NCBI GenBank assembly: GCA_951406725.2
Contig: OX597835.1
Coordinates: 50,716,001-50,780,000 of the forward strand
Length of the DNA: 64,000 nucleotides
Source: Octopus vulgaris
Lineage: Eukaryota
Direction of reading: 5' to 3'
Part shown: one piece after another, positions 9,122 through 64,000 of the stretch
How the letters are laid out: every line of letters begins with the position of its first letter
Numbering within the stretch: position 1 is the first letter of the stretch
The notes under the pieces: generated by a model
What the model was told of the DNA's origin: nothing
The model's database searches: none
Seen by the model: the letters and a program-made list of their open reading frames with translations, nothing else
Position numbers and translations under genes: made by a program

Positions 9122-9302
9122 AATATATATTTATATATTTTATCAATTTCTCATTTTATTAAAATTTTCTTTCATTTGAGCATTCTGCATTTTTAAAAAA
9201 TTTTTTCCTTATATATATATATATACATATATACATATATATACATATATATACATATATACATATACATATATATATATGTACATATATATATATATAT
9301 AT

Positions 9303-11183
9303 GCACTGTAGGATAGGGCCACTCGTTGAAAAGGATGGCACACTCACAGGAAAACCAATGAGGGTAAGTGAAATACTGAATGAGCAATTCAAGAGTGTTT
9401 TCACTCCACCCCTTGGGCATTTCCAAATCACCAATCCAACTGACTTCTTTACCACTGCAGATATAAAATCAGAGGTGGCGACGATAGACTACATCGATGT
9501 AAAGGAAGACGATGTAATAAAGGCTATAGATGAAATGAAAACAGACTCAGCTACTGGCCCCGATGGATTCCCGGCAATCCTCCTAAAAGTATGTAAGAGA
9601 GTCCTAGCAAGACCACTGCAGTTCCTCTTTCAGAGCTTCCTTGCAGCTGGCAAACTTCCAAGAAAACTGAAGGAAGGTAAAAATGCCCTATTCATAAAGG
9701 AGGTAGCAGAGCGGAGGCCAAGAACTACAGACCTATCTCTCTGACCTCACACATCAGCAAGGTCATGGAACGAATAGTCAGAAGGAAACTGATCACCTTC
9801 CTTGAAGAAAATGACTTGCTGCCCGACACCCAACATGGTTTCCGACCAGGGAGAAGCTGTTTAACTCAGCTCCTACAACACTATGACTGGGTGCTGAAAC
9901 GACTGCTCAACCACTCAAATGTTGAAGTGATATATCTCGACTTTGCAAAGGCCTTTGATAAAGTCAATCATGGAATGATATGTCACAAACTGCGTGATCT
10001 CAACATAGTTGGAAAACTGGGAGAATGGCTTCATGACTTTCTGAAAGATAGAAGTCAGGTGGTAGTAGCCACTTCCATTAACACGCAAATAGTGAGCGGT
10101 GTTCCGCAGGGCACTGTCTTGGGACCACTACTGTTCATAATGGCCCTCTCAGACATGCCCTCAGCCACGCAGAGAGCCACGATCACAAGTTATGCAGATG
10201 ATACAAAAGTTTCACAGGCAATACAGAACCCTGAGGACATTAAACGCCTGCAATGTGAGCTGGACAAAATATACAAGTGGGCTGAAAAGAATAGCATGCA
10301 GTTCAATGCTGAAAAGTTTCAAGCTTTATACTATCAGCATGCAAAACCAAATGCAATACCCAATGAATACACTGGACCCGGAGGAATTGCAATCCCAGAG
10401 ACACAATCAGTGCGTGACCTGGGTATTTACATGAGTGATGACGCAACCGTTCATGTACATGTTGCTAAATTGGCAATGAAATGTAGATGACTGGCCGGAT
10501 GGATTCTCAGAACCTTTAGAACAAGAGAGCAAGAAACCATGATGGTCCTCTGGAGGACACTTGTCCTAAGCCACTTTGACTATTGCTCTCAGTTATGGTC
10601 ACCATCCAGTGTCAAGTTGATCACAGAACCTGAGGCGATCCAACGTAGCTACACGAAGAAGATAGCCTCTATGCAGAATATAAGCTACTGGGAAAGACTC
10701 AAGAGACTAAAACTATATTCCTTGGAGCGTAGGTGGGAAAGATATGCCATAATATACATCTGGAAGATCCTGGAGGGACTTGTCCCAAACTTTGGCATCG
10801 AGAGTTACACAAATGCCAGAACTGGGCACCACAGCGTGGTGCCTAGGACTCCAAAGTTGCCATCAAGATGTAGGACAAGATACTGTGATAGCCTGGGCTT
10901 CCGAGGCCCACAGCTCTTCAATATCCTCCTGAAGAACCTAAGAGACCTGCATGGGGTGGACGCAGATGTCTTTAAAATGAAACTGGATCTCTTCCTGTCA
11001 GGTATCCCAGATGAACCAACTTCACGGCAGGAGGTGCAGATGATGGCAGCTGCATCGAACTCTCTCATGCACCAAATGGCAGTTGCTAAAAAGCTTTCGT
11101 GAAGTAAAACTGAGTAGCAACACCAAATGGCGGTGCCCCAGCATGGCCACAGCTCATGAGCTGAAACTGGAATCAATCAATCA
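9303..11183 (+). mobile_element. CR1-like LINE, 5'-truncated ORF2 with frameshift and stop, (AATC)n tail
   Basis: ORFs 9301..9744, 9765..10490 and 10539..11102 give [32 protein letters not shown] and DLGI; it ends ggaatcaatcaatc and is flanked by TA repeats. Confidence 0.93.
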
Positions 11184-39194: not shown

Positions 39195-42000
39195 GTCCGT
39201 TTTCCATGCTGGCATGGGTTGGACAATTTGACTGAGGACTGGTGAACCAGATGGCTGCACCAGTCTCCAATCTGATCTGGCAGAGTTTCTACAGCTGGAT
39301 GCCCTTCCTAACACCAACCACTTTGAAAATGTAGCAGGTGCTTTTACGTGCCACTGGCATGAGGGCCAGTCAGGCAGTACTGGCAACGGCCATGCTCAAA
39401 TGGTGTTTTTTACGTGCTACCTGCACAGGAGCCAGTCCAACAGCATTGGCAAAGACCTCACTCAAATGCTTTTTCACGTGCCACCGGCACAAGTGCCAGT
39501 ACAGCAATGCTGGTAATGCTCATGTTCGAATGGTGCTTTTTACGTACCACCAGCACAGAAGCCAGTCAGCTGCTCTGGCAATGATCATGCTCGGATGGTG
39601 CTCTTAGCGCTCCACTAGCACAGATGCTAGTCATCAAATTTGATTTCGATTTCACTTGCCTCAACAGGTCTTCATAAGCAGAGTTTAGTGTCCAATGAAG
39701 GAAAGGTATGTATAAGTGGGCTGGTTACAGTTCTGGCATAGACCACGAGGTTATGGTCTCACTTGGCTTGCTGGGTCTTCTCAAGCACAGCATATTTTCA
39801 AAGGTCCCAGTCACTACTCATTGCCTCGGTGAGACCTAATGTTCGAAGGTCGTGCATCACCACCTCATCCCAGGTCTTCGTGGGTCTACCTCTTCCACAG
39901 GTTCTCTCAGCGGCTCGGGTGGCACTTTTTCATACAGCTATCCTCATTCATTCGCACCACATGACCATACCAGCGCAGTCGTCTCTCTTGCACACCACAT
40001 CTGATGCTTCCTAGGTTCAACTTTTCTGTCAAGGTACTTAACACTCTGTCCAGTATGCACACTAACATTATACATACATCGGAGCATACTGACTTCATTC
40101 CTTGCAAGCTTACGCATGTCCTCAGCAGTCACAGCCTATGTTTCACTGCCATGTAGCATAGCTGTTCGTACACAAGCGTCATACAGTCTGCCTTTTACTC
40201 TGAGCGAGAGGCCCTTTGTCACCAGAAGAGGTAAGAGCTCTTTGAACTTTGCCCAAGCTATTCTTATTCTAGCAGCTACACTTTCAGCGCACCCCACTCC
40301 GCTACTGACTTGGTCCCCTAGGTAACGAAAGCTATCAACTACTTCTAGTTTTTCTCCCTGGAATGTAGCGGAAGATGATCTCTGCGCATTTTCAGTGTTT
40401 ATTGCTCCTGAGCATCTGCCACATACAAAAACTATCTTCCCCGTTAGCCTCCCTTTGATATTGCTGCACCTCTTATGTGTCAATAGATTACACTGGATAC
40501 ATCTTATGAAGTTTCTACTTATGCCTTTTCTACAGATCGAGCAGGGCCATCTACCTGAAGGGATTTGTGGTTTGGCTGCCTTCCTACTTATTAGGACTTT
40601 GGTTTTAGCTAGTTTAACTCTAAGGCCCTTCGATTCTAATCCTTGCTTCCATGTCTGAAACTTCTCTAGTTCTGACAGTGACTCAGCAATTAGAGCAAGG
40701 TCGTCAGCATAAAGGAGCTCCCAGGGGCATTCTGTTATTGCCTGGAGGACTATGATAAATAGGAAGGGGCTGAGGACTGAACCTTGGTGGACCCCTACCT
40801 CTACCTGGAATTCTTCACTGTACTCATTGCCAACCTTCACCTTACTGACAGCATCCCTGTACATGGCTTGCACAGCTCTCACTAACCATTCTTCTATCCT
40901 TAGTTTCCTCATTGACCACCAGATAAAGGATTGGGGGACCCTGTCAAAAGCTTTCTCCATGTCAAAGAAAGCCAAGTACAGAGGTTTATCTTTGGCCAGG
41001 TGTTTCTCCTGCAGCTGTCTTACCAGAAATATAGCATCAGTGGTGCTTTTCCCTGGCACAAAACCAAACTGCATCTCCTCTAAACTGACTCTCTCCCTAA
41101 TTAGTTGGGCTATGACCCTCTCCGTTACCTTCATTACCTGATCCAATAACTTGATACCTCTGTAATTATTTGTATCTAAAGCGTCATCTTTATCTTTGTA
41201 GCAGTTGACTATTATGCTGCTACACCAAACATTGGGTATGACTCCTTCGTGTATCACCTGGTTAACTATATGGGTGACTAAGCTATAGCCGACACCGCCA
41301 GATATTTTGAGCATCTCTGCAGTGAATCCTGTTGGGCCGGGGGCTTTTCCTGTCTTCATACCTATTTCTTTATTACCCACAAGGGGCTAAATATAGAGGG
41401 GACAAACAAGGACAGACATAGGTATTAAGTCGATTATATCGACCCCAGTGCGTAACTGGTACTTAATTTATCGACCCCAAAAGGATGAAAGGCAAAGTCG
41501 AGCTCGGCGGAATTTGAACTCAACGTAACGACAGACGAAATATGGCTACGCATTTAGCCCGGCATGCTAACGTTTCTGCCAGCTTGCCACCTTCATACCC
41601 TTAATTACTTTATCCACCAAGGTACTGTCAACTCGGATAGCTGGTCCCTCTCTTGGGTCGACATTCGGCAGACTCCCTTTCTCCCATTCATTTTCTTTAT
41701 TCAGCAACCTTTCATAGTGGCGTCTCCAAACCTCTCTCTTTGCAGCCTCGTTTAGTGCAAGTGAACAATCATCTATGAGGACACATTTCTCTCCTACAAC
41801 ATCACGATTCTCATTCACACACTGTCTTGCAACATGAAATATCTCAAGTCTTTGGTCCTCGCAGCACAGAACATTGGCAAATTGTTTTCTTATCTGCTTC
41901 CCCTCTGGCTAAATAAACCTGTCTCCTAGCTTTCCTTCAGGCAGTCTGATACAATTCCCTGCTACCACCATTCTTCCAGTCCTTCTAAGCCTGTTTCTTT
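39195..42000 (-). mobile_element. RTE-clade LINE, 5'-truncated, interrupted by a SINE
   Basis: ORF 40136..41380 has KAPGP, NYRGIKLL, QFGFVPG, YADDL, FRYLG and LRWYGHV, followed by a repeat-bearing 3' UTR. Confidence 0.93.
41363..41590 (-). mobile_element. Young SINE nested in the RTE LINE
   Basis: TSD CTTCATACC at 41354-41362 and 41591-41599; the empty site is seen in the paralogue near 56620; CpGs are retained. Confidence 0.93.
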
Positions 42001-42002
42001 AT

Positions 42003-42700
42003 TGCATACCACATCTGATGCTTCTTAAGTTCAACTTTTCTCTCAGGGCACTTACACACTGTCGTGTATGCACACTGACATTACACATCCAGCGGAGCAT
42101 ACTGGCTTCATTCCTTGTAAGCTTACGCATGTCCTCAGCAGTCATGGCCTATGTTTCGCTGCCATGTAACATAGCTGTCCGCACACATGCATCATAGTCT
42201 ACCTTTTACTCTGAGCAAGAGGCCTTTGTTGCCAGCAGAAGTAGGAGCTCTCTGACCTTTGCCCAGGCTATCCTTATTCTAGCAGCTACAGTTTCAGAGC
42301 ATCCACCCTCGCTACTGACTTGGTCACCTAGGTAATGGAAGCTATCAACTATTTCTAGTTTTTCTCCCTGGAATGTGACAGAAGCTGTTCTCTGCACGTT
42401 TTCAGTGTTTATTGCTCCTGAGCATTTGCCACACACAAAAACTATCTTCCTAGTTAGCCTTCCTTTGATATTGCTGCACCTCTTATGTGTCCATAGCTTA
42501 CACTGGGTACACCTTATGGAGTTTCTACCTACGCCTTTTCTACAGATCAAGCAGGGCCAACTACCTGAAGGGATTTGTGGTTTGTCTGCCTTCCTACTTA
42601 TTAAGACTTTGGTTTTTGCCAGGTTGACTCTAAGGCCCTTTGATTCTAATCCTTGCTTCCACACTGAATCTTCTCTAGTTCTGATAGTGACTCAGCAATT
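42003..42700 (-). mobile_element. Second RTE-LINE ORF2 fragment
   Basis: ORF 42206..42664 repeats the PHD/thumb region and shares diagnostic residues (GSWPCLIC, SSEGGCSE) with the 55.8-56.3 kb copy. Confidence 0.9.
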
Positions 42701-54866: not shown

Positions 54867-57800
54867 CATCATCATCATCATCATCGTTTAACATCCGCTT
54901 TCCATGCTGGCATGGGTTGGACGGTTTGACTGAGGACTGGTGAGCCAGATGGCTGCACTAGGCTCCAAAGTGATCTGGCAGAGTTTCTACAGCTGGATAC
55001 CCTTCCTAATGTCAACCACTCCGAGAGTGTAGTGGGTGCTTTTACATGCCACCAGCATGAGGGCCAGTCAGGCAGTACTGGCAACAACCATGCTCAAATG
55101 TTGTTTTTTATGTGCCACCTGCACAGGAGCCAGTCCAGTGGCACTGGCAACGACCTCACTCAAATGTTGTTTTTCACATGCCACCAGCACAAGTGCCAGT
55201 AAGGCGATGCTGGTTACGATCACACTAGAATAGTAATTTTTATGTGCCACCAGCACGGGAGTCAGTCAGGGACCCTGGCAATGATCACATTTGGATGGTG
55301 CTTTTAATGTTCCACTGGCAATGGCATTCAGGAAGTGCTATCATCGGCCACATCAGCAAAATTTAATTTCACTTGCCTCAACAGGTCTTCGCAAGCAATG
55401 CATAAGTAGGCTGGTTATGTGACACTGGTATAGGCCACAGGTTGTGGTTTCACTTGGCTTGCCAGGTCTTCTTAAGCACAGCATATTTCCAAAGGTCCTG
55501 GTCACTACTCATTGCCTCGGTGAGGCCCAACGTTCAAAGGTTGTGCTTCACCACCCTATCCCAGGTCTTCCTGGGTCTACCCCTTCCACAGATTCCCTCA
55601 ACTGCTAGGGTGTGACACTTTTTCACACAGCTGTCCTCATCCATTCGCACAACATGTCCATACCAGTGCAGTTGTCTCTCTTGCACACCACATCTGATGC
55701 TTCTTAGGTCCAACTTTTTCTCTCAAGGAGCTTATGCATATTGACATTACACATCCATTGGCTTCATTCCTTGCATGCTTACGCATGTCCTCAGCAGTCA
55801 CAGCCCATGTTTCACTGCTATGTAGCACGGCTGTTCGTACAGCATACCTTTTACTCTGAGCAAGAGGCCTTTTGTTGCCAGCAGAGGTAGGAGCTCTCTG
55901 ACCTTTGCCCAGGCTATTCTTATTCTAGCAGCTACACTTTCAGAGCATCCACCCTCGCTACTGACTTGGTCACCTAGGTAACGGAAGTCATCAACTATTA
56001 GTTTTTCCCCTGGAATGTGACTGAAGCTGTTCTCTGCAAATTTCCAGTGTTTATTGCTCCTGAGCATCTGCCACATGCAAAAACAATCTTCCCAGTTAAT
56101 ATTTCTGCACCTCTTATGTGTCCATAGCTTACACTGGGTACACCTTATGGAGTTTCTACCTACGCCTTTTCTACAGATCAAGCAGGGCCAACTACCTGAA
56201 GGGATTTGTGGTTTGTCTGCCTTCCTACTTATTAAGACTTTGGTTTTAGCTAGGTTGATTCTAAGGCCCTTACCAGAAATATAGCATCTTACCAAAAATA
56301 TAGCATCAGTGGTGCTTTTCCATGGCACAAACCCAAACTGCATCTCGTCTAGACTGACCCTCTCCCTAATTAGTTGGGCTACAACCCTCTCCATGACCTT
56401 CATTACTTGATCCAACAACTTGATACCTCTGTAATTGTTTGTATCTAAAGTGTCACCTTTACCTTTGTAGCAGTTGACTATAGTGCAACTTACACCAGTC
56501 ATTGTGTATGACTCCTTCATGTAACACCTGGTTGACTATATGAGTGACTAAGCTATAGCCAACACTGCCAGATATTTTGAGCATCACTGTGGTGATTCCT
56601 GATGGGCCGGGGCTTTTCCTGTCTTCATACCCTTAATTGCTTTATCTACTAAGGTACTGTCAATTCGGATAGCTGGTCCCTCTGTTGTGTCGGCATTCAG
56701 CAAGCTCTCCCAGTCATTCTCTTTATTCAGCAACCTTTCATAGTGGTGTCTCCAAACCTCTCTCTTTGTAGAATCATTTAATGCACGTGAACCATCATCC
56801 ACGTGAAAACATTTGCCTCCTATGACATCATGATTTTCTCTCACACACTGTCTCACAGCACGAAATACCTCAAGTTTTTGGTTTTTATGGCACAGAACAT
56901 TGGCAAATTTTTTCTTATCTGCTTCCCTGCTGGCTAAATAAACCTGTCTCCTAGCTTCCCTTTTGACAGTCAGATATGATTCCCTGCTACCACCGTTCTT
57001 CCAGTCCTTCCAAGCCTGTCTCTTTTCTCTAATAGCCCTGTCAACAACATTATTCCACCACCATATTACGTTGGGTCTAGAGGAGACTTTGTACAATCCA
57101 CAGATCTGGTCAGTGGCCCTCAACAGGTTGTCTCATAGAAACCTCCAGTTGTCTTCCACATCATGTAATGTTATATACCCCTCTATTTCATCAAAAGCTT
57201 TGAGTAAAATGTCTCTAAATCTCTGTCCATTCACAGGATCATTAAGCTTCCAGACTCTTCATCTTCATGCTGGTTGTCTTCTGGGCGACCATTTAGTTCT
57301 GATCCTGAAGTCGCTAACTACTAGTCTATGTGGGGTACATTCTTTGCCTTGGAAGGTTTTGGCATTTATAAGTAGCCATCTTTCCCTTTTCCTGGTGAGG
57401 ATGTAGTCAATCTGACTAGTGTGTCTAGGTGACTGCTAGGTTTCCTGAAGTTAGTATTGCAAACCATAAGATCATTTGCATCGCAGAACTCCAGCAGCCT
57501 GGTTCCCTCTTCATTGCAGGAACCAAAACCATAGCTTCCATGTATGCCATGGAAGCTCTCTGCTTGTTGTCCATTGTCCATTGAAATCACCAGCCACAAA
57601 GAGAATATCCCTGTCATTTGTCGACAAGGTAGTTAGTAAGAGGGTGTCATAAAATCAGTTTTCTGTCCATCAGGTAGCTCCAGCTGAGGAGCATAGGCCA
57701 AGATAATGGTTGCTAACCCATGGTGAGGCACTAATCTAATCTTAAGTATTCTATTGCAGACTCTGACTACCTTGATTACCTTATCAATCCATTTCTCTGC

Positions 57801-59367: not shown

Positions 59368-59640
59368 AATAGGTATTAACACTTTAGCCGTCCCAGTTAT
59401 AAGTTACAGCTACAATATCCTTAACTGGACACTAAATGAACTGACCAAAATAGATAGGAAAACAAGAAAAATAATGACAGGATCTAGGATGCATCACCCA
59501 AAATCTGACATAGAAAGGCTATATATACAACGTATAGAAAGTGGTAGAGGCCTTATACAGCTGGAAAACTACTATAAAATAACCACCATAGGACAGCAAA
59601 AATATCTACTTCAGAAGGAAGGAAAACTGATACAAATAGT
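59368..59640 (+). mobile_element. Dong/R4-clade non-LTR retrotransposon fragment (post-RT thumb region)
   Basis: GINTLAVPVISYSYNILNWTLNELTKIDRKTRKIM...HHPKSDIERLYIQRIESGRGL is characteristic of R4/Dong; the 5' junction is in a (TAA)n run. Confidence 0.85.
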
Positions 59641-62600
59641 CTGACGTCTCAAGCATCTTACCGAACGATACCGGAGACATCCACTTGCCAACTGCTAGCC
59701 GTCAAAATAGTCTGGACCCCCTTGAGGTGCGACGGTCACCTAGAGCGTGACTATCCAGCGTGGGCCGACCCGTAAGCTCACGGGTCTGTTTCCGTTAACT
59801 TAGGGATCGGACCACGTCGTTGTATTTACCAGGTGTATATCGCCACAGACTCAGGGCGACTGACGGGTTCGGTCGCGGGTACATCCACGTGTACGTGGGC
59901 GATACCGCTAGCTTCGATTCGTTCTTTCTATATCGGGCACGGTAGCGCGGCGGAGCTCCGGTCGACTGGCGCAGGGCTGCCGCCATCGGTTCCTACCTAT
60001 ATTAGCCGCAGTTGTTATCTTTCGAGAATTTACGCTAAGGAACACGTCGATAGATAACAACTGCGGCTAGTATAGGTAGTGGCCGTCAGAGGTGGAGTTG
60101 CGCCATGCTTTCCCTGTTTCGGTTCGTTCTTTCGATATCGGGCAGGGTAGGGCGGCGGAGCAACGGGCGACCGGCGCAGGTATGCCGCTGGCGAGCCCGC
60201 GGCGCGTAGTCGAACAGGGAAAGGATGGCGCAACCCAACTACTGGCGGCCCATACCTATCCTAGCCGCAGTTATCTTTCGACGTTTTCCTTAGCGTAAAT
60301 TCCCTTGTATCTCGTGACAGCCTTCCGGCATCGGTCGCGGGTACGTCTACGTGTACGTGGGTTATACCGCGAGCTTAGATTCGTTCTTTCGATATCGAGC
60401 ATGGTAGTGCAGCGCGTAGTCGAACAGGGAAAACGAGGTGGCGTTAAAGCGGCGGCCACCCGCCGGGCTCACGGCGTCTCAGGCTGACGTCTCAGACATC
60501 ATGCCGAACGATCCCGGAGACATTCACCTGCAGACTGCTAGCACTCAATATAATCTGGAACCCCTTGGGGTGCGACGGCCACGTAGAGCGTGACTATCCA
60601 GCCGGGGCCGACCCACAAGGTTAAGGGTCTGATTTTTTTAACTTACGGGTCGGACCGCGTCACTGTATTTACCCGGTGCATATCGCCAAAGACTCCCGGT
60701 GACTGACGGCATCGGGAATTTGTGGGACGGACCACGTCACTGTATATTTCGATACCGGGCACGGTAACGCGGCGGAGCAACGGTCGACCGGTGCAGACCT
60801 GCAGCTGGCGGCCCCGCGGCGCGTCGTCGAACAGGGAAAGAAAGGTGGCGTTAAAGCGGCGGTCATTCGTCGGGCTCACGGTGTCTCAGACATCATGCCG
60901 AACGATCCCGGAGACATTCACCTGCAGACTGCTAGCCCTCAATATAGTCTGGAACCCCTTGGGGTGCGACGGTCACCTAGAGCGTTACTATCCAGCCGGG
61001 GCAGACCCACAAGCTTAAGGGTCTGATTTTTTTACCTTATGGGTCGGACCACGTCGCTGTATTTACCCGTTGCATACATGGCTACTGATGGCATCGGGAA
61101 TTTACGGGATAGACCATGTCACTGAATCGACCGCATGTACCTTTCGATATTAAGCACGGTACGTGGGCGATACCTCGAGCTTCGATTCGTTCTTACTAGG
61201 TCGGGCACAGTAACGCAGCGAAGCTCCAGGCGACTCCGCAAACCCTGCCGCTGTCGGTCCCTACCTATACTAGCCAGTTGTTATCTTTTGGGAATATTCG
61301 GGAGGGAGCACGTCGCTGTATTGACCGCGTGTATTTCGTGACAGAGATCCGGCATCGTTAGCGGCTACGCCCCGCGGACGTGGGCGATACCGCGAGCTTA
61401 AGTTCGTTCTTTCGATATCGGGAACGGTAGCAAGGCGGAGCAACGGGCGACTGGTGCAGGGCTGCCGCTGGCGACCACGCGACGCGTAGTCGAACGGTGA
61501 AATCAAGGCGGCGTGAAGGTGGCGGCGACCCGACGGGCTGACGGCGTCTTAGGCTGACGTCTCAGCTATTTTGCCGAACGATCCCGGAGACATCAACCTT
61601 CCGACTGCTAGGCCTCAATATAGTCTGGACCCCCTTTGGGTGTGACGGTCACCTAGAGCGTGACTGTCCAGCCTGGGCCGACCCGTCAGCTAACGGGTCT
61701 GTTTCCGTTAACTTTCGGGTCGGACCACGTGCATATCGCCACAGACTCTCGGCGACTGACGGGATCGGTCGCGGCTACGTACACGTGTGCATGGGCGGTA
61801 CTGCTAGCTTCGATTTGTTCTAACTAGATAATGCACGCTAGCGAGGCGGTGCTCCGGGCGACTGGGGCAGGTCTGCCGCTGGCAGCGCCTACCTATACCA
61901 GCCGCAGTAGTCATCTTTCATGAATTTACGGGACCGACCACGTCGCTGTATCGACTGCGTGTATTTCATGACAGAGATCCGGCATCGGTCGCGGGTACGT
62001 CCAAGTGTACGTGGGCGATACCGCTAGCTTAGGTTCGGTCTTTCGATATCGGGCAGGGTTGCGCGGCGGAGCAACGGGCGACCGGCGCAGGCCTGGCGCT
62101 GGTTGCGCAGGCCTGGCGCTGGCGGTGCAGGCGGCACGTAGTCGAAAGGTGAAAGCAAGATGGCGTGAAGGCGGCGGCCACATTACTGGCTGACGGCGTC
62201 TTAGGCTGACGTGTCAGGCATCTTGACTCTCTACCTGCCGACCGACCGGCCGAACTCGTGTTGGATATCGAGAACTCGGCTCAGAACTCGCCCCAGAACT
62301 CGCCGCTTCGTGCCTCGTCGATAACACTGATAACACACGGATACACTCAATCGTTGTCTTCGTCGATAACGTCGTATACTACTCAGACTCTCTAACTTCC
62401 GAACGACCGGCCGCACTCGTGCTCGATACCGCTCCCGACGGTATCCAGCTCACGTTCCCTGTTACTGGGTGAACAATCCAACGCTTTGCGAATTCTGCTT
62501 CGCAATGATAAGAAGAGCCGACAACGTAGGATCAAAAAGCGACATCAAGAGGCGGGCAAAGGCGGACATCAAGAGGCGGGCGAAGGCGGATGTGAAGATG

Positions 62601-64000
62601 CGGTGAAGGCGAGCGTCAAAAGGCGGGCGAACGCTGCGTCTGAAAGGCAGGCGGTGTGGCGGCGGAAATTCGAGGACGCGCCAGCCGCGTAGAGTCGATC
62701 TTGCACCGGCAAACGGGGAGCTAACCGTTGGCAGAAATGGGCGACGAGAAAATCCCTTTCAGACGGTCACCTATGCCGATCAGCCACAACCCTACATAGA
62801 AGTCTGGACCCCCTTGGGGTGCGACGGCCACCTAGAGCGTGACTATCCAGCGGTGGCCGACCCACAAGCTTACGGGTCTGATTTTTTTAACTTACGGGTC
62901 GGACCACGTTGCTGTATTTACCCGGTGCATATCGCGTAGTCAAACAGCGAAACAAGGCGGCGTGAAGGCGGCGGCCACCCGCGGGCTGACGGCATCTTAG
63001 GCCGACGTGTCAGGCACCTTGTCAAACGATGCCGGAGACATCCACCTGCTGACTGCTAGCCCTTAATATAGTCTATACCCCCTTGGGATGAGACGGCCAC
63101 CTCGAGCATGAATATCCGGCGTGCGCCGACCCGTAAGCTCACGGGTCTGTTTCCGTTAAGTCACAGGTCGGACCACGTCATTGTATTTACCCGGTGCATA
63201 TCGCCACAGACTCCCGGCGACTGATTGTATCGGTCGCGGCTTACGTCCACGTGTGCGTGTGCGATACTGCTAGCTTCGATTCGTACTTACTAGATCATGC
63301 ACGGTAGCGCAGAGGAGCGCCAGGCGACTTGCGCAGGCCAGCCGCTGGCAGCACCTACCTATACTAGCCCCAGTTGTCATCATTCAGGAATTTACGTGAA
63401 GGAACACGTCGCTGTATTGACCGCGTGTATCTCGTGACAGCCTTCTGACATCGGTCGCGGCTACGTCCAAGTGTACGTGGGCGATCACGCGAGCATAGGT
63501 TCGTTCTTTTGATATCCGGCACGATAGCGCGGCGGAACAACGGGCGACCGAAGCAGGTCTGTCGCTGGCGGCGCTGCGGCGATTAGTCGAAACGTGAAAG
63601 CAAGATGGCGTGAAGGCGATGGCCACACGCCGGGCTCATGGCGTCTTAGGCTGACGTGTAAGGCATCTTGACGAACGATGCCGGAGACATCCACCAGCCA
63701 AATTCTAGCCCTCAATATAGTTCGGACCCCCTTGGGGTGCGACGGTCAACTAGAGCGTGACTATCCAGCGTGGGCCGACCCGTAAACTCACGGGTTGGTT
63801 TCCGTTAACTTACGGGTCGGTCCACGTCGTTGTATTTACCCGGTGCATATCGCCACAGACTCCAGGCGACTGAAGGGATCGGTCGCGGCTACGTCCATGT
63901 GTACGTTTGTGATACCGCAAGCTTCGATTCGGTTTTACTAGATCGGGCAAGGTAGCGCGGAGGAGTTCCGGGCGACTGGCGCAGGCCTGGCGCAAACGTC
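59641..64000. repeat. GC/CpG-rich complex tandem repeat (unit about 650-680 bp, rearranged), running off the window end
   Basis: The core AGTCTGGACCCCCTTGGGGTGCGACGGTCACCTAGAGCGTGACTATCCAGC recurs at about 59709, 60553, 60946, 61622, 62801, 63070 and 63719. Confidence 0.95.
62432..62546 (-). pseudogene. Degenerate 28S rRNA fragment (domain V, peptidyl-transferase centre)
   Basis: The minus strand reads GTCGCTTTTTGATCCT.CG.TGTCGGCTCTTC.TATCATTGCGAAGCAGAATTCGC.AAGCGTTGGATTGTTCACCCA.TAA.AGGGAACGTGAGCTGG, the conserved eukaryotic LSU rRNA sequence with several substitutions and a small deletion. Confidence 0.93.

What the first reader, a model, noticed from the sequence alone, without database searches (positions are those of the whole stretch)
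59641..64000. GC-rich tandem array whose monomer is built almost entirely from hairpins
Seen: an abrupt switch from AT-rich DNA to a CpG-rich array with seven core copies spaced about 844, 393, 676, 1179, 269 and 649 bp apart. Each core folds into a three-way junction (CTGG/CCAG closing ACCCC-ctt-GGGGT and GTCAC-ctagagc-GTGAC). A long stem follows (CGTGG-G-CCGACCCGTAAG...CTTACGGGTCGG-A-CCACG), and then further hairpins such as GCGACTGA/TCGGTCGC. Inference: this is far more self-complementarity than an ordinary satellite needs. It could be an rDNA spacer orphon, a centromeric/subtelomeric satellite, or a genomic multimer of a structured (possibly circular, retrozyme-like) RNA. I found no CUGANGA/GAAA hammerhead core in the monomer.
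Basis: partly seen in the sequence, partly recalled or inferred. Interest (0 to 1): 0.8.

Follow-up and report, generated by a model that had tools for sequence, protein, structure and literature searches.

The report
Stray decayed rDNA spacer with 28S
This GC-rich repeat array holds a 115-base piece of the 28S ribosomal RNA gene and is likely a rearranged, decaying stray copy of the ribosomal DNA spacer, which makes it ordinary genome debris and not a new hairpin RNA.

Summary
The array is real: seven cores at the stated spacings, in a ~650 bp monomer whose copies are 72-87% alike, joined to a dead non-LTR retrotransposon piece at 59639/59640. 'Built almost entirely from hairpins' is overstated. 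Excess folding is confined to a ~110 nt core, and the stems do not covary (1 of 31 pairs). Public contigs show a more GC-rich version, roughly 200-1800 times deeper than single-locus contigs, in three coded organisms. In it the core joins the non-repeat segment next to the 28S piece. On the minus strand the pieces run repeats, core, unique segment, 28S domain V, repeats: the order of an rDNA unit with two large deletions. Best reading (0.7): a rearranged rDNA intergenic-spacer orphon, or the decayed edge of an rDNA cluster, whose monomers are promoter-bearing subrepeats. The promoter assignment is inferred. No intact rDNA unit of this organism could be read. No ribozyme was found. Interest is low.

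The parts
59378..59639 (+). Fragment of a non-LTR retrotransposon ORF following an (AAT)n tract; left flank of the array. The label R4/Dong-like is recalled, not tested.
   Evidence: 66 of 96 candidate proteins match at E<=1e-5, many with PF00078; 61 contigs in X1 go on with other sequence behind 59639 (table 7)
59640..64000 (.). Degenerate CpG-rich array; runs off the window's right end
60820..61482 (.). Near-full monomer u3 with an internal rearrangement
61483..62132 (.). Full monomer u4 (650 bp)
62933..63583 (.). Full monomer u6 (651 bp); holds an internal duplication (monomer 238-420 against 469-640, 69%)
63584..64000 (.). Monomer u7, cut by the window end
60026..60302 (.). Locally inverted and duplicated monomer pieces; source of the longest hairpins
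   Evidence: (I1-I3)
63720..63828 (-). Structured core, copy 7 (three-way junction, 20-bp near-palindrome, long stem). Other copies start at 59710, 60553, 60947, 61623, 62802, 63071.
63709..63719 (-). TATATTGAGGG motif directly downstream of the core on the minus strand; candidate Pol I spacer-promoter start site (inferred). Also 63060-63070 and 60936-60946; decayed forms at cores 1, 2 and 4.
   Evidence: compared with motifs quoted in PMC2590618
62802..62935 (-). Core 5: its likeness to the other cores stops about 62790 and gives way to the non-repeat segment; candidate gene promoter (inferred). Its own start motif is not TATA-like.
   Evidence: contigs bridge the junction: table 8, records 5, 15, 29
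62547..62800 (-). Non-repeat GC-rich segment, present in deep contigs, remotely like the monomer's first 135 bp; candidate start of the 5' external transcribed spacer (inferred)
   Evidence: record 29, depth 1039.6; tables 3, 4; 72% over 47 nt, E 0.002; score 39 against 17.1 +/- 5.5, 0 of 500 shuffles; folding z +0.45
62432..62546 (-). 28S rRNA fragment (model positions 2875-2984 by cmscan; the peptidyl-transferase region, from established knowledge), with a 4-base deletion
   Evidence: 93.3 bits, E 9.3e-23; 85-90% to 32 of 32 fetched eukaryotic rDNA contigs
62226..62431 (.). Short repeat of about 160 bp period (two 46-bp copies, 85% alike); candidate second class of spacer subrepeat (inferred)
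   Evidence: joint 62372 to 62237 in X1 (table 5)

Best explanation
The array is a decayed, rearranged run of ~650 bp GC-rich repeats that holds a 28S rRNA fragment, and it is likely a stray copy (orphon) or the decayed edge of the host's 45S rDNA intergenic spacer. Shown: the repeats, the 28S piece on the minus strand, AT-ward decay, and a deep, more GC-rich version elsewhere in which core 5 is joined to the non-repeat segment. Inferred: in the intact unit the monomers are spacer subrepeats, each carrying a duplicated RNA polymerase I promoter (palindromic core, then a TATA-like start motif, reading leftward); core 5 is the gene promoter and 62547-62800 the start of the 5' external transcribed spacer. 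Inferred: a piece of rDNA was copied out, suffered two long deletions (spacer start to 28S domain V; 28S to the next spacer) plus short inversions, was joined to a dead retrotransposon, left concerted evolution and has been decaying since. This copy would be non-functional; its hairpins would be leftovers of a palindromic promoter element plus inversion by-products.
For: (1) 28S fragment inside the array, 93.3 bits, E 9.3e-23. It is the only rRNA-like match in 64 kb when 32 contigs, among them complete 18S, 5.8S and 28S genes, are blasted against the window at E<=1e-3; the array is 6.8% of the window. (2) Single deep contigs against locus-level contigs give ratios of about 346 (X1), 345 (X11), 417 and 1811 (X12) and 208 (X14): rough, but the order expected for rDNA (established knowledge). 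(3) The non-repeat segment is as deep as the repeats and is bridged to core 5 by contigs in three runs (records 5, 15, 29). (4) Differences from window to contigs lean to G/C: 106 to 34 in X14, 190 to 123 in X1, 251 to 191 in X11, 244 to 211 in X12 (table 1, includes 240 bp of flank). Among window copies 158 changes go G/C to A/T and 49 the other way; CpG transitions 47 of 709 against 50 of 1152 (p 0.04). (5) The 28S piece differs from the best intact 28S at 8 substitutions and one 4-base gap in 119 columns, the same order as array against deep contigs (20 of 194, 22 of 136). (6) Minus-strand order of pieces is that of an rDNA unit. (7) Architecture parallels stick-insect Bag530 repeats: tandem ~530 bp units, each with a TATA-GGGG-type motif and a palindrome 88 bp upstream (PMC2590618, passages); here the palindrome centre lies about 67 bp upstream. 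Mussel spacers are 55-56% GC, CpG-island-rich and carry subrepeats (PMC6730533, passages).
Against: No intact rDNA unit of this organism was read, so the repeats were never seen next to 18S or the 28S 3' end, and no listed contig bridges the 28S piece to its neighbours (one search showed only part of its tables). A 28S scrap could be an independent capture (6.8% by position alone, given one scrap). The start motif departs from the published arthropod consensus TATA>TANGRRRR (0 matches at 2 mismatches), the pattern was taken from the window so its 3 hits are not independent, and core 5, the presumed gene promoter, lacks a TATA-like motif. The tool warns that contig depth is no copy number. The core is only slightly better kept than the rest (84% against 80-82%).
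Confidence: 0.7

Rival explanations
1. The repeats are rDNA-derived but lie in a transcribed spacer (5' ETS or ITS) of the intact unit, where the core folds as part of pre-rRNA.
For: The core folds better on the rRNA-sense (minus) strand in 6 of 7 copies by z-score. Stem changes give G-U on the minus strand in 12 cases against 2 on the plus (p 0.013). Repeats inside the ETS are reported for stick insects and a mussel.
Against: With stems chosen strand-neutrally the core gives 8 against 2 (p 0.11), and the other four monomer parts show no such bias. No covariation. Multiples of 650 bp with start-like motifs fit a non-transcribed spacer better (inference).
Confidence: 0.12
2. An independent GC-rich satellite or transposon-internal tandem repeat (possibly once derived from the rDNA spacer) that captured a 28S scrap at this locus.
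For: Many shallow, 10-19% diverged contigs show further decayed copies in each run (table 8). Dispersed spacer sequence giving rise to satellites is described in plants (PMC3563450, passages). The monomer has an old internal duplication, as higher-order satellites do.
Against: It needs a chance 28S capture in the matching orientation and order; a deep non-repeat segment joined to one core is not expected of a plain satellite; no coding sequence was found in the array.
Confidence: 0.13
3. A genomic multimer of a retrozyme-like or viroid-like circular RNA, copied by a retrotransposon's reverse transcriptase.
For: Tandem copies, a structured core, and a neighbouring non-LTR retrotransposon fragment.
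Against: No ribozyme family above chance in Rfam (best Hairpin 13.6 bits against a 65-bit cut-off, E 9.2). No relaxed hammerhead motif on either strand (0 found, 0.79 expected from shuffles). No covariation. Most of the monomer folds like shuffled sequence. It does not explain the 28S piece.
Confidence: 0.03
4. A repeat or origin region of an endogenous DNA virus.
For: Palindromic cores in tandem repeats recall viral homologous-repeat origins (recalled, no call).
Against: No exact match of the core motif in viral contigs; no viral-like ORF in the array; the 28S piece.
Confidence: 0.02

Closest known systems
45S rDNA intergenic-spacer subrepeats with spacer promoters (Bacillus stick-insect Bag530; Drosophila and Daphnia promoter-bearing subrepeats)
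   Same: Head-to-tail repeats of several hundred bases with an internal duplication, a palindrome upstream of a TATA-then-G-rich motif in each unit, and a last copy that gives way to unique sequence (PMC2590618, PMC1215480, PMC3036644; passages).
   Different: No sequence likeness was tested beyond the short motif; the motif misses the published consensus; this copy is decayed, rearranged and joined to a retrotransposon remnant.
rDNA orphons and spacer-derived dispersed repeats (Xenopus and human orphons; Nicotiana, Vicia, Phaseolus spacer-derived satellites)
   Same: rDNA pieces outside a homogeneous array, with partial coding sequence and spacer repeats (PMC3563450, passages and reference list; the cited orphon papers were seen as titles only).
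   Different: Not seen whether this one is dispersed or the edge of a cluster, since the array leaves the window.
Molluscan rDNA spacer (Perna mussels)
   Same: About 55-56% GC, CpG islands over most of the spacer, subrepeats (PMC6730533, passages).
   Different: Mussel subrepeats are 40-131 bp and no inverted repeats were detected there.
Retrozymes (hammerhead-bearing non-autonomous retroelements; features recalled)
   Same: Tandem structured copies beside retroelement sequence.
   Different: No hammerhead or other ribozyme; irregular units; carries 28S sequence.
Mammalian pRNA from the rDNA spacer promoter
   Same: A stem-loop in rRNA-sense RNA covering the promoter region (PMC9575697, passages); the core here lies just upstream of the start-like motif and folds better on that strand.
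   Different: No transcript, no covariation and no protein partner shown here.

Membership tests
rDNA orphon / rDNA-derived remnant | Contains sequence of an rRNA gene or of the rDNA unit | tested here: met
   28S fragment 62432-62546
rDNA orphon / rDNA-derived remnant | Diverged from a homogeneous high-copy parent | tested here: met
   Deep contigs differ by 10-16% and lean to G/C; AT-ward decay among copies
rDNA orphon / rDNA-derived remnant | Lies outside the nucleolar organizer | tested here: inconclusive
   Left flank is 59 kb of AT-rich, retrotransposon-laden DNA without rRNA matches; the right end is outside the window and no genome is held
45S rDNA intergenic-spacer subrepeat | Parent lies between the 28S 3' end and the 18S gene | not testable with these tools
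   No genome held; laid contigs were short pieces, none spanning the stretch
45S rDNA intergenic-spacer subrepeat | Copy number of the order of rDNA | tested here: inconclusive
   Depth ratios 208-1811 fit, but contig depth is a rough measure and 28S depth could not be used as a yardstick because human-like contigs are filtered out
45S rDNA intergenic-spacer subrepeat | Duplicated Pol I promoter in each repeat, same sense as rRNA | tested here: inconclusive
   TATATTRAGGG on the minus strand at 3 cores, decayed at 3 more, absent at core 5; no match to the published consensus at 2 mismatches
Retrozyme / viroid-like RNA | Self-cleaving ribozyme in each unit | tested here: not met
Retrozyme / viroid-like RNA | Stable structure over the whole monomer, kept by compensatory change | tested here: not met
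   1 of 14 non-core tiles at z<=-2; 1 of 31 pairs changed on both sides, 271 of 500 shuffles as high
Retrozyme / viroid-like RNA | Monomer-length circular RNA | not testable with these tools
   Only contigs were available
Centromeric or subtelomeric satellite | Long regular arrays at centromeres or telomeres | not testable with these tools
   No genome or chromatin data; local units are irregular
tRNA-, 5S- or 7SL-derived SINE | Pol III RNA-derived head | tested here: not met
   No tRNA; no Rfam match at gathering score or in a single monomer at E<=10 apart from two chance hits

The most novel reading that the evidence does not exclude
The intact parent is an rDNA spacer in which every repeat carries a promoter-proximal three-way-junction and long-stem module that folds in rRNA-sense spacer transcripts: an invertebrate counterpart of mammalian pRNA, in a lineage (octopus-like by recalled repeat motifs) whose spacer we did not find described. 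The G-U bias of core stem changes towards the minus strand (12 to 2) would be its trace.
Probability: 0.1. Interest if true: 0.55.

Novelty: new member of a known kind. Interest (0 to 1): 0.22.

Why it matters
As it stands, little: rDNA orphons and promoter-bearing spacer subrepeats are known kinds. It offers a handle on this animal's rDNA spacer and likely Pol I promoter, which assemblies often collapse, and a piece shared at 3 differences in 250 bases between organisms A and C (record 12) could serve as a marker. It would matter more if the core proved to be a folded spacer RNA, since structured promoter RNAs are described for mammals in the review read here.

Tried and rejected
Whole-genome analysis: no genome held. 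Rfam over 8 kb and 64 kb missed the 28S piece; only the 651-base scan found it. The three microRNA-precursor hits are far below their cut-offs and sit on the inversion hairpin or a core stem: rejected. Core motif in viral contigs: 0; in prokaryote genomes: 0; in metagenomes: 2, both 21-base chance matches in one unrelated repeat. L003 is a chance match without rRNA. No match in E. coli genomes. Expression: no RNA holder listed; X14 is only guessed to be RNA and its depth profile follows the DNA runs, so it says nothing on expression. Low cover over the 28S piece in X12 and X14 is no finding, since human-like contigs are dropped. ORFs in the array: no Pfam match at cut-off (9 of the listed frames scanned, 6 of them in the array); the one protein hit is an antisense-28S translation. 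The idea that the second TATA-like motif (TATAGGTAG, 4 minus-strand copies) is a paralogue of the first: rejected (1655 and 506 of 2000 shuffles as good). Its likeness to the Drosophila start site is recalled and was not confirmed in print. A recalled ETS processing motif was not confirmed (0 papers). Searches used a wrong register for the long stem and were replaced; the paired/unpaired tallies share that error and were replaced. Strand bias outside the core: none. No divergence gradient towards the window end (87-94% to majority). Earlier scan findings: none.
Full report
Observation. The window is AT-rich, microsatellite- and retrotransposon-laden animal DNA; some dispersed repeats look octopus-like to me, which is recalled and comes from no call. 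At 59640 GC rises from 0.35 to 0.58 and CpG o/e from 0.37 to 1.26. Seven cores lie at the stated spacings. Tiling against one intact copy shows a ~650 bp monomer with an internal 69% duplication, broken by deletions and by an inversion at 60026-60302. Long self-matches among copies are 72-87% alike. The left junction cuts a non-LTR retrotransposon ORF (66 of 96 candidates at E<=1e-5), and 61 contigs of run X1 go on with other sequence there.

Structure. The named stems exist, but excess folding is limited to the ~110 nt core: z <= -3 in 4 of 7 cores on the minus strand, against 1 of 14 non-core tiles at z <= -2 (the sliding scan agrees). Whole monomers score -3.10 and +0.27. One of 31 pairs changes on both sides, as in shuffles (271 of 500 and 259 of 500); RNAalifold's covariation term is unfavourable (+0.29). 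Paired columns vary as much as unpaired ones (31 in 62, 33 in 69). One result points the other way: stem changes give G-U on the minus strand 12 times and on the plus strand twice (p 0.013), with the opposite trend in unpaired columns (Fisher p 0.009). With strand-neutral stems this falls to 8 against 2 (p 0.11) and it is absent in the other four monomer parts, so I treat it as a hint. No ribozyme was found by Rfam or by a relaxed hammerhead search.

The missed part. 62226-62800 is not monomer. A protein search with a frame from it hit one sequence, which proved to share 23 of 30 residues over an antisense reading of 28S. A narrow Rfam scan then gave LSU_rRNA_eukarya at 62427-62530, minus strand, 93.3 bits, E 9.3e-23. 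Thirty-two eukaryotic rDNA contigs fetched from contaminated prokaryote assemblies (six scanned by Rfam, holding complete 18S, 5.8S and 28S genes) all match 62432-62546 or part of it at 85-90% and nothing else in the 64 kb at E<=1e-3.

The parent. Thirteen of 24 listed runs hold part of the stretch. I laid four (80% likeness; long tables were cut by the tool). Besides contigs of this locus (X1 depth 52-54 with 0-1 differences; X11 depth 8.25 with 3 differences) there are single contigs at depth 18323 (X1), 2843 (X11), 4588 and 19923 (X12) and 1040 (X14): about 200-1800 times locus level. The tool warns that depth is no copy number, so only the order of magnitude is used. Differences lean to G/C in all four runs, and among the window's copies 158 changes go to A/T against 49 to G/C (386 G/C and 237 A/T columns). 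The segment 62643-62835, which crosses from the non-repeat part into core 5, is covered by one 194-base contig at depth 1040 in X14 and is bridged by shallow contigs in X1 and X11. So the non-repeat segment belongs with the core in the high-copy parent.

Model. Read on the 28S-sense strand, the pieces run: repeats u7 and u6, core 5, a 250 bp non-repeat segment, 28S domain V, a ~160 bp repeat, then repeats u4 to u1. That is the order of an rDNA unit (spacer, promoter, ETS, 28S, next spacer) with two long deletions. Each core is followed on that strand by TATATTGAGGG or a decayed form, about 67 bp from a 20-bp near-palindrome. Stick-insect spacer repeats are described with a palindrome 88 bp upstream of TATATAGGGGGT and a gene motif TATATTAGAGGGA (PMC2590618, passages; its supplementary alignment is an image I did not see). 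Promoter duplications in spacer subrepeats are general (PMC1215480, PMC3036644; passages), and mussel spacers are CpG-rich at 55-56% GC (PMC6730533, passages). The non-repeat segment is remotely like the monomer's first 135 bp (0 of 500 shuffles; a test made after seeing the match), as expected if spacer promoters duplicate the gene promoter with the ETS start. Against this: the motif misses the published consensus, core 5 itself has no TATA-like motif, no listed contig links the 28S piece to its neighbours, and the parent was never seen beside an rRNA gene. I give the spacer-orphon or cluster-edge reading 0.7, a transcribed-spacer variant 0.12, an independent satellite 0.13, a retrozyme-like RNA 0.03 and a viral repeat 0.02.

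Novelty. Dispersed rDNA pieces and spacer-derived repeats are known (PMC3563450, passages). Searches for octopus with satellite DNA (20 of 24 listed), with rDNA and external transcribed spacer (1 of 1), with 28S and copy number (17 of 19) and with 45S or nucleolar organizer (15 of 34) showed, by their listings only, no description of such a spacer; the library lacks most subscription papers and no eukaryotic sequence database could be searched. The boldest reading left is a pRNA-like structured spacer RNA (PMC9575697, passages), at about 0.1. Verdict: a real feature, a new member of a known kind, interest 0.22.

Noticed in passing
window:58850-59145: Short AT-rich element with an (ACAG)n tract near its end, like non-autonomous Helitron-type elements (label recalled, not tested).
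   Followed up: no
window:35394-35673, 39342-39633, 55040-55200: Three dispersed clusters of a related 65-66 bp tandem unit; looks like an abundant cephalopod SINE-type repeat (recalled).
   Followed up: no
window:2239-2847, 40136-41386, 42206-42691, 55798-57632 (minus); 9163-11102 (plus): Several broken reverse-transcriptase (non-LTR) copies of two families.
   Followed up: partly
window:3386-9302: Very long (AT/AC)-type microsatellite fields, up to 1.9 kb, inserted in retrotransposon remnants, with strong GC skew.
   Followed up: no
L004-L035: Eukaryotic rDNA contaminates many prokaryote assemblies: 32 stretches shown, about 220 estimated by the tool; L022 holds two tandem units with group I introns.
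   Followed up: partly
window:62427-62530: Method note: Rfam scans of 8 kb and 64 kb missed a 93-bit LSU fragment that a 651-base scan found.
   Followed up: yes
window:59924-60173 and 62685-62935: Organism C holds a piece of this locus with 3 differences in 250 bases, and organisms A and C each hold a shallow contig over 62685-62935 with the same counts (27 differences, 10 gaps), suggesting a second shared stray copy (records 12, 5, 15).
   Followed up: no
L001:1192-1212, L002:1159-1179: Two metagenome contigs share one AT-rich repeat with a hairpin that matches the core motif by chance over 21 bases.
   Followed up: partly
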